This document shows positions 32,001-35,000 of a DNA stretch of 64,000 bases, in pieces. The stretch is from assembly GCF_033153115.1 (NCBI RefSeq), contig NW_026889803.1, forward strand, positions 58,590,001 through 58,654,000, in the 5' to 3' direction. The notes beneath the pieces are model-generated. The model ran no database searches. It saw nothing but the letters and a program-made list of their open reading frames with translations, and had not been told where the DNA came from. The stretch's first letter is position 1; every line of letters starts with the position of its first letter. Source of the DNA: Saccostrea echinata (lineage: Eukaryota). Position numbers and translations under genes: made by a program.

Positions 32001-35000
32001 ATAGGTTTAAACACATTCGCCACAGTTTGGATATTTGGCATAAAGCTAAGAAGCTTGCATATATGTTGGGGGATGCTGCAAAGAAAGCTGCCCATCGCAG
32101 TCTATTACCATGGATCCGCCCTACTGTAAACCACTTCTGGTATTGCTGTAGTTCGTGCGGTGGGGATGCCCAAAAACTGGTTAAAAAATGGTTTAAAATA
32201 CTGCACCATGTTACAAACGAGCATGAATGGTCTGGTGGCAGGTAACCATGCATTATGAAAACATATCCAATGAAACTATTTTGAACTGTTTTAAAAAAAA
32301 TTGCGATTTTATCTATTTAATTGTAAACTTATAGATGTAATCATGCTAAAGACACAAATACAAGTATGGAAAAGTGACTTTCTAAGAATTCATCTACTTA
32401 CACAGAATTTCGGTACGTATTTATTATTTATTGAAGTTAGTGAACAGACGTACGCTCTTTTTACTATCTATACAAACAATTACAGTACAGATCATTAGAA
32501 ATCATGAATTTTTTTTTTATTTCTATATATAGAAAAATCGTCGTAAATAAGGAGTTTACTGGAAACTTCAATTATTACACTACCTGTAGACAAACGTGGG
32601 CAATTGAAAATTTCTATTCCCACACTCTCCTGCACTACTGTCCAAAACAAGTGTCATTTGGATTTGACTCCTACGTCATCAGGAACCAACTTGCTGTCAT
32701 CGACTATAATCACCATCTGGACAGAGAGATTCAGCAAGCAAAGGATGGAACCAGTGTCCCTGTCGTACAATTTTCTCGTAAAACGAAGCAGTGGGTTGCT
32801 TATGATAGACGAGTAGCTAAATGTTATACTTATATTCCTGGTACGTAAATAAGATATTTTTTTCATATGTTATGTTAAAAACTAGGGGGTGGGGGGGGGG
32901 TAATGAAATTAATAAAGTATGCATTGCCTTATAAACTTGCCGTATTCTTTCTGAATTTGTTTATACATACAGGTTGTATTTATTCTTCCCCCTCCTTTTT
33001 TTGGGGTGGGGGGTGGGGGGTGGTAAAAATCTATCACTGTAAAGATATAACTAAATTATTCAGTACAATTTTTTTTAGATCTCATTGCAAGTTGTTTGAG
33101 ACAAACATATGGCGCCCGAAGAGAAGCATATACGAAAAGTTTACAAGCAAAAACATTGGATCAAATCGCTACTAATCTCTCTGGAGAAACTACACCGTCA
33201 TCTAAGGAACTTTTAAACAGCAGAAAAAAAAGAAAAACTTGTGGTAAGTAACATTTCTCTTTTAATCTGAATCAGAGTATAAAGACTCATAGCCCTTATA
33301 GTCCACAGGATTGACTTCAGGAAATCGAAGTCGTATCTGACGACAGACACAGGATGGTACTACAACTCGCCTTCCTGCTCCTAACCGCCCATGCTGCCAG
33401 AGTACAAAATTGCGGTATGCCTGGTTCCTGAACGTACTGGCTCTGAAACTAGGATCAAGATTTGTTCGGAAACTCCAGTTCAGAATGTTCGCAATCTCAA
33501 TAACATCATGTCTGAGACATAGGTTGCGAAATTCTGGCCTCGTGGTGATGCAGTGGGGATGACCACAGCAGATGTTCATCCGTGGGTCAGAGAAAACGGT
33601 ACACCTCCCACAACAACACCATGAGGCAACACTGAAGTTACCCGAACAAAATCCACTTGTTTCCAAGAGGTATGGGGCCAGTACGTCAGGAAGCAGTGTC
33701 TCCGCAACTGATACTCTTGCACGCAACTCCGCCTCTGGCATGGAGGTAATGGCGTTCTGCAATAATGAACAATTTTCATGTTTAAAATAATAAAGACACA
33801 GATGCATAAAGTGTGGAATTTAGTTCTGTGTCCGTTGATTCTTGTATAATTTTGGTGTACCTGCAAACTAACTGCCTGACCCTGGTCTCTGTTATTTTCA
33901 GGTCTAGCTCTATCTTCCAGCATTTGATTAAGAGAAGGGACACCATCTCCTCCTCTTGAATTCCTTCTGCTATTGTTGGCATAAGGGTGAAACCTGGATT
34001 GTTGTGGATTTCCTTCTGCTTCCCTGAATTGGCACTTAGCATTTCTACAGTTTGTGCAGCCCCTTCTCCTGCATACACAACTTTTGCACTGCCCTCTATT
34101 TTGGCATGCACAACAATTTATCTATGAAAGCAGATAAAATACATTATCAATAAGCCTGGAAGAGAGAGAGAGAGAGTATCAAACAGCTTATTTTGTAAAA
34201 ACTTATTTCTCTTAAATACACGTATATATCAGGTCATGCATTTATAATTACCATTTAAATTATTGGGTGTGTTTTTTTTTTGTTTTTGTTTTTTTGTTTT
34301 TTTTTTTTTTTTTGTATGAAGAAAAACGGTATGTACATGTTTTGTGCTGTAGGTTTCTGTCAAACATTAGTTATTATGGATTTTGTATGGCGTTATTTTC
34401 GTACATATATGGAAGAAATATTTTACATGTGTAATAACAGTACAAGTTGTACATATTTGTTGGAAACTTTTTGATGTTTGTACTATCTAATTTTTTTTAA
34501 TGAAGAAAAGCTTTATTTTGATCAAGAAAAATACAACTTCAATATACGTGTACATATGTGTTTTGTCCTTTTTCATATTAGTTAGGAAAAAAGGAGGCCT
34601 ACAAATATTTTTATATAACCTCCAATATTTTTTTTTACTCAATTTTTCTTCAAATCTGTAGCTAACAGGATCTTGGTAAAAATCAATTACAACTACATAA
34701 GTAACATTTAAAACCACACCTTACAATGCGGTGAATCCTGCTTTTATATATTATTACTTTTTTTCAAAGATAAAATGCAATCATCAGGAAAATGGTCAAT
34801 AATAACCGATCCCATTGAGAGGCATGCGCACGAAAATGGAAATTATGTTATCTATTTTTAGCAAAACTGGATTGTCAAGTGACTTGTCAACATGTCGGAA
34901 GGGCGTGAATGTGTTCTGGATGTATTTCGTAAAAGAATTTGGATACTTTATTCTGATCGTTTTTATGCTTATTTCTACTTACCGTTGGATCCATCAAACT

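What the first reader, a model, noticed from the sequence alone, without database searches (positions are those of the whole stretch)
33262..34121. Transposon accessory protein joining a CXC-like Cys cluster to a P2X7 ballast-like domain
Seen: a spliced ORF missed by the ORF track, with C-C-x-C-x5-C-x2-C-x-C-x4-C-x2-C-x4-C, then an R/N/G-rich linker, then WCCCGRC...CC...CITT...R..AYR...W..G...PSC...IR..FP...Y.GY. Known: the latter pattern is that of the cytoplasmic ballast of vertebrate P2X7 (binds zinc and guanine nucleotide) and of Kolobok KolX proteins. Inference: the N-terminal cluster resembles tesmin/CRC-type DNA-binding domains, suggesting a nucleotide-sensing, DNA-binding regulator of transposition. 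The frame is intact although the transposase has a stop.
Basis: partly seen in the sequence, partly recalled or inferred. Interest (0 to 1): 0.75.

Follow-up and report, generated by a model that had tools for sequence, protein, structure and literature searches.

The report
Oyster Kolobok transposon with interlocked genes
This is the known helper gene (KolX, kin to the tail of the vertebrate P2X7 receptor) of an oyster Kolobok jumping gene; it carries an extra nine-cysteine cluster that likely binds zinc and perhaps DNA, and it is interlocked with the transposase gene, since both start in the terminal repeats and the transposase transcript splices over the helper's last exon and ends antisense to its cysteine exon.

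Summary
The spliced gene is real. The 33861>33756 junction appears in contigs of two studies, and RefSeq holds the same 255-aa protein (Saccostrea echinata, 98%). It lies in a 7.4-kb Kolobok transposon (TTAA duplication, AG..CT ends, ~605-bp TIRs). The ballast kinship holds but was published for KolX in 2022. All 7 zinc cysteines are kept, only 2 of 5 GDP residues, so nucleotide sensing is weakly supported. The nine-Cys cluster is invariant from oysters to a scallop but fails the published CXC consensus. Other KolX proteins carry canonical CXC-type clusters, so it is probably a deviant CXC; this scan noted CXC+KolX before in other DNA (e1-7768725).

The transposase's last intron contains the whole ballast exon, and its last exon lies antisense to the Cys exon (4 of 4 runs); its splice acceptor is the reverse strand of KolX's conserved P-E-N codons. 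Two other oyster families fit this register (0 and 1 mismatches of 8). I found no description of this. This copy's transposase has a stop. Verdict: new variant of a known kind.

The parts
28019..28022 (.). TTAA target-site duplication, left
28023..28629 (+). left TIR (~607 bp, begins AG), about 99% identical to the right TIR; holds the first exons of the transposase gene
28430..28441 (+). 4-codon first coding exon in the left TIR, followed by a GTAAGT donor; identical to KolX's first coding exon
29114..33243 (+). Kolobok DDE transposase, 10 internal exons; model of about 566 codons with acidic N-terminus, D...D, DxxH motif, E; in-frame TGA at 32375-32377
   Evidence: seven GT..AG joints seen in contigs between 30121 and 33078; the three 5' exons at 29114-30121 are modelled from sequence and homology only; 99% to RefSeq P0204
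33244..33901 (+). last intron of the transposase gene (658 nt, GT..AG); contains the entire KolX ballast exon on the other strand
   Evidence: joint in 4 of 4 runs, 2 studies; RefSeq P0204 ends with the spliced tail
33902..34552 (+). last transposase exon: 8 more codons to the stop at 33925-33927, then 3' UTR; antisense to 220 nt of the KolX Cys exon; 3' end near 34552 is a weak hint (one A-tailed contig, AATACA at 34530)
33262..33756 (-). KolX last exon: helical region plus P2X7 ballast-fold domain (about 33624-33298) with all 7 Zn-ligand Cys, R546 and R578 equivalents
33757..33860 (-). KolX intron (104 nt, GT..AG)
33861..34121 (-). KolX Cys exon: nine-Cys cluster (34115-34032), basic linker, conserved P-E-N codons at 33902-33894 whose reverse strand is the transposase's last splice acceptor
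34983..35053 (-). TIR-borne exon ending in the 4-codon KolX start (34994-34983)
   Evidence: joint 34121/34983 in X1; joint 35053/35239 in X1 and X4; RefSeq P0001 start
34798..35400 (-). right TIR (~603 bp); includes an upstream exon (to 35239), a 185-nt intron, and an in-frame upstream ATG at 35278 that would add 33 codons
35401..35404 (.). TTAA target-site duplication, right

Best explanation
The ORF is the KolX accessory gene of a two-gene Kolobok (Kol0-type) DNA transposon of a rock oyster, spliced into a 255-aa protein with a nine-Cys cluster in front of a P2X7-ballast fold, and it most likely works as the DNA-contacting helper of the transposase, with the cluster predicted to be a deviant CXC-type zinc cluster. 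Shown: the element anatomy, the splicing of both genes from the TIR exon, the fold of the C-terminal domain, and the nesting of the ballast exon in the transposase's last intron with a 220-nt sense-antisense overlap. Inferred: the twin TIR promoters express both genes together; the basic Cys cluster binds three zinc ions and contacts TIR DNA for a transposase that shows no recognisable DNA-binding domain, as the Myb-like protein does for Harbinger; the ballast is a zinc-stabilised interaction module rather than a GDP sensor; the overlap ties the two genes together (KolX's P-E-N codons double as the transposase's splice acceptor) and would damp output through polymerase collision or double-stranded RNA. 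This copy would be non-autonomous but able to supply KolX in trans.
For: TTAA duplication and AG..CT ends match the Kolobok definition in PMC9587614. Ballast: Pfam E 2.5e-18, P2X7 chains E 2.3e-8, AlphaFold model whose 14 Foldseek hits at E<=0.001 are all P2X7; 7 of 7 Zn Cys kept, each in at least 123 of 127 aligned relatives. A convergent transposase lies beside KolX in 10 of 24 metagenome loci, about 6 distinct elements. Splice joints for both genes. Cluster: identical spacing in Saccostrea, Magallana and the scallop Ylistrum, 7-8 K/R against 1 D/E in the three checked. Canonical-spacing clusters occupy the same place in KolX of sea urchin, acorn worm, two sea anemones and a hydrozoan; 2 of 129 meet the published CXC consensus strictly and 5 with one spacing relaxed; 1 of 8 hits Pfam preSET_CXC at E 8.4e-5. 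The L003 cluster is intermediate: 0 of 500 shuffles reach its score on the canonical profile, 6 of 500 on the oyster profile. No THAP or other DNA-binding family in 7 of 7 transposases scanned. Interlock: tails of two other transposase families (55-60% identical to this one) fit the reverse strand of their KolX in the same register with 0 and 1 mismatches of 8, against 4-8 in shifted registers and about 7 for random windows.
Against: No test of DNA, zinc or transposase binding was possible. The window's cluster fails the CXC consensus, has no Pfam hit (0 of 5), scores no better than its shuffles on the canonical profile (27-71 of 500), gives 1.3% in profile-profile comparison, and its low-confidence model matches nothing. 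33 of 44 relatives with a long N-terminus show no cluster (some are truncated gene models, but a well-supported 16-row clade has none), so the cluster is not essential to KolX. Only 3 of 8 distinct transposase tails fit a KolX with at most 1 mismatch, 2 fit no better than chance, and 9 of 22 transposases have no such tail; one RefSeq model of this family ends unspliced (P0228). The TIR-to-transposase joint rests on one contig in one run. The runs are only guessed to be RNA, and strand is read from splice dinucleotides.
Confidence: 0.55

Rival explanations
1. One reading: a nucleotide-sensing, DNA-binding regulator in which the ballast binds GDP/GTP and gates transposition.
For: R546 and R578 equivalents are kept in 125 and 120 of 127 relatives; Rump et al. 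(PMC7016195, sections read) suggest invertebrate domains may bind GDP; the fold is conserved.
Against: H547 is Asn, R574 is Cys and K583 is Glu here, and these columns vary freely. The two kept arginines could equally bind DNA phosphate or be structural.
Confidence: 0.18
2. KolX is a chromatin or anti-silencing factor: the cluster is a pre-SET-like structural or protein-binding module, and the protein protects or targets the element without sequence-specific TIR binding.
For: The only Pfam hit of any cluster is preSET_CXC; PMC3447885 (passages) assigns pre-SET CXC variants only a structural role; N-termini are exchangeable among KolX (cluster, RG-rich tails in 6 of 33 cluster-less rows, THAP in a tick per PMC7016195).
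Against: The exchangeable modules are all basic or DNA-binding types, which fits DNA contact; no host partner is known.
Confidence: 0.2
3. The gene is a domesticated host gene or a dispensable passenger, and the Cys exon is an accident of the overlap with the transposase's 3' UTR.
For: This copy's transposase is broken while KolX is open; nanor and the P2X7 tail show that KolX can be domesticated (PMC9587614).
Against: TIRs about 99% identical with an intact TTAA duplication; 3 KolX and 5 transposase RefSeq loci of the same family in S. echinata; one stop in a young copy needs no selection; nine Cys are invariant across families whose linkers have diverged.
Confidence: 0.07

Closest known systems
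KolX of the Kol0 lineage of Kolobok DNA transposons (Kojima and Bao 2022, PMC9587614; passages and supplement text seen, Fig. S6 is an image and was not seen)
   Same: TTAA duplication, RR..YY ends, DDE transposase with DxxH motif, second protein with the P2X7 ballast fold.
   Different: The main text has no mention of CXC, antisense, overlap or opposite strands. Here there is an N-terminal nine-Cys cluster, ~605-bp TIRs that hold a first coding exon for both genes, and interlocked 3' ends.
P2X7 cytoplasmic ballast / ZCD proteins, nanor (Rump et al. 2020, PMC7016195; abstract and sections 9, 11, 13 read; Pfam PF20478)
   Same: All 7 Zn cysteines, R546 and R578; oyster ZCD proteins were already listed.
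   Different: That paper calls the N-termini variable and without obvious homologues (exceptions TolA, THAP in a tick); a recurrent Cys cluster was not noted. Three of five GDP residues differ; no channel domain.
CXC superfamily: MSL2 CXC, tesmin/LIN54 CRC, pre-SET (PMC3447885, PMC4974476; passages seen)
   Same: Nine cysteines in about 30 residues, CxC motifs, basic; other KolX proteins meet or nearly meet the consensus.
   Different: The window's spacing is compressed (x2 and x4 where the consensus needs 4-7 and at least 5), an extra N-terminal Cys replaces the eighth, the last Cys is not followed by xN; single copy; no Tyr in the cluster.
Maize MuDR (mudrA/mudrB; PMC3440606, passages seen)
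   Same: Two convergent genes with promoters in long TIRs; antisense RNA is made.
   Different: In MuDR antisense comes from termination failure; here it is built in by a canonical intron that skips the partner's last exon, and the TIR holds a spliced coding exon.
PIF/Harbinger Myb-like partner protein (PMC9179366, passage seen)
   Same: Second ORF that binds TIR DNA and the transposase: the working model for KolX.
   Different: Unrelated fold; for KolX neither interaction is shown.

Membership tests
Kolobok superfamily | TTAA target-site duplication | tested here: met
   28019-28022 and 35401-35404
Kolobok superfamily | 5'-RR..YY-3' termini with TIRs | tested here: met
   AG..CT, ~605-bp TIRs
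Kolobok superfamily | DDE transposase with C/DxxH motif | tested here: met
   D...D, DIWH, E in the spliced model; weak Pfam Mutator hit in relative P0216, E 1.9e-4, below cut-off. Catalytic residues assigned by eye.
Kol0 lineage | second protein KolX with ballast fold | tested here: met
Kol0 lineage | transposase groups with Kolobok-1_XT in a DDE-core tree | not tested
   no reference Kol0 transposases were obtained
P2X7 ballast / ZCD | seven Zn-coordinating cysteines | tested here: met
   7 of 7
P2X7 ballast / ZCD | GDP pocket R546, H547, R574, R578, K583 | tested here: not met
   2 of 5 kept (residue list from PMC7016195)
P2X7 ballast / ZCD | binding of zinc and guanine nucleotide | not testable with these tools
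   needs biochemistry
CXC superfamily | nine Cys ligands in under about 50 residues | tested here: met
   9 invariant Cys in 28 residues
CXC superfamily | published consensus spacing ending in C-x-N (PMC3447885) | tested here: not met
   window cluster fails; only a six-Cys part plus xN fits in a shifted register, which 2.3% of 20000 shuffles also do
CXC superfamily | Zn3Cys9 fold | tested here: inconclusive
   model pLDDT 65 without zinc; no Foldseek or VIA match
CXC superfamily | homology by profile | tested here: inconclusive
   direct tests negative; indirect link through L003 and canonical clusters in other KolX
tesmin/LIN54 CRC | two tandem CXC with minor-groove tyrosines (PMC4974476) | tested here: not met
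   one cluster, no Tyr within it; one relative, P0102, has two clusters
tesmin/LIN54 CRC | sequence-specific DNA binding | not testable with these tools
   needs EMSA or SELEX

The most novel reading that the evidence does not exclude
Oyster Kol0 transposons are self-regulating two-component machines with an interlocked design not described for eukaryotic DNA transposons. Both TIRs act as the same promoter and first coding exon. The transposase transcript splices over its partner's last exon using an acceptor encoded by the partner's conserved P-E-N codons, so every active copy makes a fixed sense-antisense pair. KolX supplies TIR recognition through a deviant CXC zinc cluster, and its ballast would be the ancestral nucleotide- or DNA-sensing module later captured by P2X7.
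Probability: 0.3. Interest if true: 0.72.

Novelty: new variant of a known kind. Interest (0 to 1): 0.47.

Why it matters
The function of KolX is unknown, and so is the original job of the P2X7 ballast that came from it. A recurrent CXC-type module at the KolX N-terminus, beside a transposase with no recognisable DNA-binding domain, gives a concrete test (TIR binding, two-protein excision assay). This young, transcribed oyster family with defined exon structures is a usable substrate for it. The interlocked layout (shared TIR exon, nested ballast exon, splice acceptor written in the partner's codons, apparently kept across families) is an unusual overlapping-gene design. It explains a conserved motif in KolX and predicts a defined source of double-stranded RNA. 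The headline link to P2X7 is not new.

Tried and rejected
No whole genome is held for this window, so copy number and dN/dS among copies could not be computed. The seven contig variants in the KolX frame (2 silent, 5 replacement when read singly) are too few and too mixed to use. Search with the first 60 residues found only P0001 itself (1 of 1 candidate); the ESM Atlas gave no usable hit. PDB sequence searches with cluster profiles or the L003 cluster found nothing meaningful (44: 0; Nab2 E 0.15 and uS5 E 0.83; 70: 0). Pfam TCR hits of the L003 and L004 clusters (E 1.7 and 5) are below cut-off. Fold searches with the cluster model gave no match; the model is low-confidence, so this is inconclusive. 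Complex prediction of transposase P0204 with KolX residues 60-250: no answer, score 0.00, alignments not used; no evidence either way. No run was on record as RNA: 'no RNA holder listed'. The ballast tree shows clusters scattered and no more clustered than shuffled labels; the labels are confounded by truncated gene models (P0003, P0008 lack the cluster but their cluster-mates have it), so gain versus loss cannot be called. A motif scan of 13 of the 24 metagenome loci found no THAP motif, but most are partial, so a link between THAP-less transposases and cluster-bearing KolX is untested. L001 is too degenerate to test the interlock, and for L003 there are no transcripts. McCarthy et al. 2019 is not held; GDP residues come from PMC7016195. 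Rejected: fusion of transposase and KolX into one protein (opposite strands); the unspliced 181-aa and 185-aa frames as separate genes (no Met for the first; the junction is observed).

Full report
Observation. The Cys exon begins at a splice acceptor, not at a Met. A 4-codon exon at 34994-34983 completes a 255-aa protein that differs at 4 positions from RefSeq XP_061185203 of Saccostrea echinata (P0001). Contigs of four public runs (guessed to be RNA; at most 3 samples, 2 studies; 26-38% of sampled words shared, so other individuals or close species) were laid on 29030-35420. They show the 33756/33861 joint in 2 of 4 runs from both studies and the 34121/34983 joint in 1 of 4.

The element. 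The gene lies in a 7378-bp element, 28023-35400, with TTAA on both sides, AG..CT ends and TIRs of about 605 bp that differ at 4 bases and 2 small gaps. On the plus strand is a 12-exon DDE transposase model of about 566 codons with a DxxH motif and one in-frame TGA at 32375-32377; 3 of 4 runs and RefSeq P0204 are open at that codon. These are the Kolobok hallmarks given by Kojima and Bao 2022 (PMC9587614; passages). RefSeq holds 3 KolX and 5 transposase loci of this family in S. echinata. In marine metagenomes, 10 of 24 KolX loci (about 6 distinct elements) have a convergent transposase. This is a young copy of a multi-copy transposon, not a host gene.

The ballast. Pfam P2RX7_C matches at E 2.5e-18 and four P2X7 sequences in the PDB at E 2e-8 to 3e-6. 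An AlphaFold model of P0001 (127 sequences; mean pLDDT 76, about 90 in the ballast, under 50 for residues 1-26) gives 14 Foldseek hits at E<=0.001, all P2X7. All 7 zinc cysteines are kept. Of the five rat GDP residues listed by Rump et al. 2020 (PMC7016195; abstract and sections 9, 11, 13 read) only R546 and R578 are kept; the other three are Asn, Cys and Glu and vary across 127 relatives. That is the state Rump et al. report for invertebrates, and they leave GDP binding open. That KolX has the ballast fold and gave rise to the P2X7 tail and nanor is stated in PMC9587614. This part is already known.

The Cys cluster. Its spacing is identical in Saccostrea, several Magallana families and the scallop Ylistrum. 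Direct tests for CXC membership are negative or inconclusive: it fails the consensus published in PMC3447885 (passages; test), has no Pfam hit (0 of 5), scores 1.3% against a profile of canonical clusters, is no better than shuffles on that profile (27-71 of 500), and its 40-residue model (pLDDT 65) matches nothing. Indirect evidence is positive. KolX proteins of Lytechinus, Ptychodera, Exaiptasia, Nematostella, Clytia and unnamed assemblies carry canonical-spacing clusters at the same position. 2 of 129 proteins with a defined N-terminus meet the consensus strictly and 5 with one spacing relaxed, and one hits preSET_CXC at E 8.4e-5 (1 of 8). The cluster of the complete element L003 has the oyster ends with a canonical middle and scores above 500 of 500 shuffles on the canonical profile and 494 of 500 on the oyster profile. 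Among 44 relatives with a near-complete ballast and at least 100 residues before it (from 173 hits), 3 have the oyster type, 8 a canonical type and 33 none; some of the 33 are truncated models, but one well-supported clade of 16 has none and includes RG-rich tails. I read the cluster as a probable deviant CXC (about 60%), not a tesmin/CRC domain (single, no Tyr; PMC4974476 passages).

First, both genes use an exon inside the TIRs. The same ATG-initiated 4 codons and GTAAGT donor lie in both TIRs. One contig joins that exon to the KolX Cys exon (X1) and another to the transposase exon at 29114 (X2; seen as an opposite-strand joint because only the right TIR was laid). A further intron lies wholly within the TIR (X1, X4). 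An in-frame ATG further upstream could extend the shared start to 37 codons. In L003 both ~300-bp TIRs likewise hold an ATG followed by a GT donor-like site, and on the KolX side it would join the Cys exon in frame (no transcripts). Second, the 3' ends are interlocked. All 4 runs splice the plus strand from 33243 to 33902 (GT..AG, 658 nt), skipping the whole ballast exon and landing antisense in the Cys exon. RefSeq P0204 ends with the eight codons this predicts. The overlap is 220 nt of exon on exon. The acceptor is the reverse strand of KolX codons P-E-N (33902-33894), a motif conserved in other oyster KolX families. I tested whether other transposase tails are the antisense of their KolX in this register. 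Of 22 transposase hits, 13 had a tail after the conserved Gly (8 distinct) and 9 had none. The window's tail fits its KolX with 0 of 8 mismatches, the P0218/P0219 tail fits the P0231-type KolX with 0 of 8, and the P0216 tail fits the P0180-type with 1 of 8. Shifted registers give 4-8 and 4000 random windows about 7. Three tails fit at best 3 of 8 and two no better than chance. The null ignores relatedness and the proteins are gene models, but each tail picks a different KolX, which relatedness alone would not give. The transposases involved are 55-60% identical to this one. One RefSeq model of this family ends unspliced (P0228), so intron retention may also occur.

How it likely works. Identical TIR promoters would drive both genes together, as in maize MuDR, where TIR promoters drive convergent mudrA and mudrB and antisense RNA arises from termination failure (PMC3440606, passages). 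No DNA-binding family was found in 7 of 7 transposases scanned, and KolX N-termini are exchangeable basic modules (cluster, RG-rich tail, THAP in a tick per PMC7016195). The best guess is therefore a Harbinger-like division of labour, in which the partner binds TIR DNA and the transposase (PMC9179366, passage). The ballast would be a zinc-stabilised interaction module; GDP sensing is possible but rests on two arginines. The fixed overlap would couple the genes and could limit output. All functional steps are inference; confidence 0.55, against 0.2 for a chromatin or anti-silencing role, 0.18 for nucleotide sensing and 0.07 for a domesticated or passenger gene.

Novelty. Paper searches found one paper with KolX; its main text has no occurrence of CXC, antisense, overlap, opposite or THAP, and its KolX alignment (Fig. 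S6) is an image that I could not see (supplement 4 is cut). Kapitonov and Jurka 2007 and Repbase entries are not held and may describe gene layout. Scan look-ups for the overlap and the shared exon returned nothing, while 14 notes cover Kolobok KolX generally (8 shown). The finding as posed is largely known; the cluster and above all the interlocked gene design make it a new variant of a known kind. Interest 0.47.

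Noticed in passing
window 31270-31627: 358-bp insert in a transposase intron with 13-bp inverted ends and GGA on both sides (read by eye); many loose contig ends here suggest a dispersed MITE.
   Followed up: partly
window 35278 (-) and 28145 (+): In-frame ATG in the upstream TIR exon would give both proteins the same 37-residue start; two short out-of-frame upstream ORFs precede it.
   Followed up: partly
P0040 (Ylistrum balloti XP_060067234, 817 aa): ALS2CR8/CARF-family domain (E 1e-24) joined to an oyster-type cluster and ballast; either a gene-model artefact or a host-gene fusion with KolX like that of P2X7.
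   Followed up: no
P0102 and cluster mates (ENA, 305 aa): KolX with two CXC-type clusters in tandem about 27 residues apart, closer to the CRC arrangement.
   Followed up: partly
L003:144-5228 (same element in L002): Complete 5.1-kb Kolobok with TTAA ends, ~300-bp imperfect TIRs each holding an ATG followed by a donor-like GT, and an intermediate-type Cys exon at 769-879.
   Followed up: partly
L004:664-816 and L005:231-380: Further canonical CXC-type clusters upstream of KolX with a convergent transposase.
   Followed up: partly
window 33249-33266 (-): ATTAAA overlaps the KolX stop and one contig ends at 33249, 5 nt short of the transposase donor, so the KolX mRNA may end inside the transposase intron; weak hint.
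   Followed up: no
window 38209-38706 (-) and 12851-13303 (-): Two similar ORFs with a TSP1-like and an EGF-like stretch (weak Pfam TSP1 hit for the first, E 0.001); possible host paralogues.
   Followed up: no
window 41266-42731 and 39208-39589: Tandem repeats of about 165 bp (7-8 copies) and about 150 bp (3 copies); the first has the unit size of the oyster satellite family, as recalled from memory.
   Followed up: no
window 59546-63327 (+): Long ORFs that look by eye like gag, protease and reverse transcriptase pieces of an LTR retrotransposon; label recalled, not tested.
   Followed up: no
window 21485-21892 (-): ORF that looks ninjurin-like by eye; label recalled, not tested.
   Followed up: no
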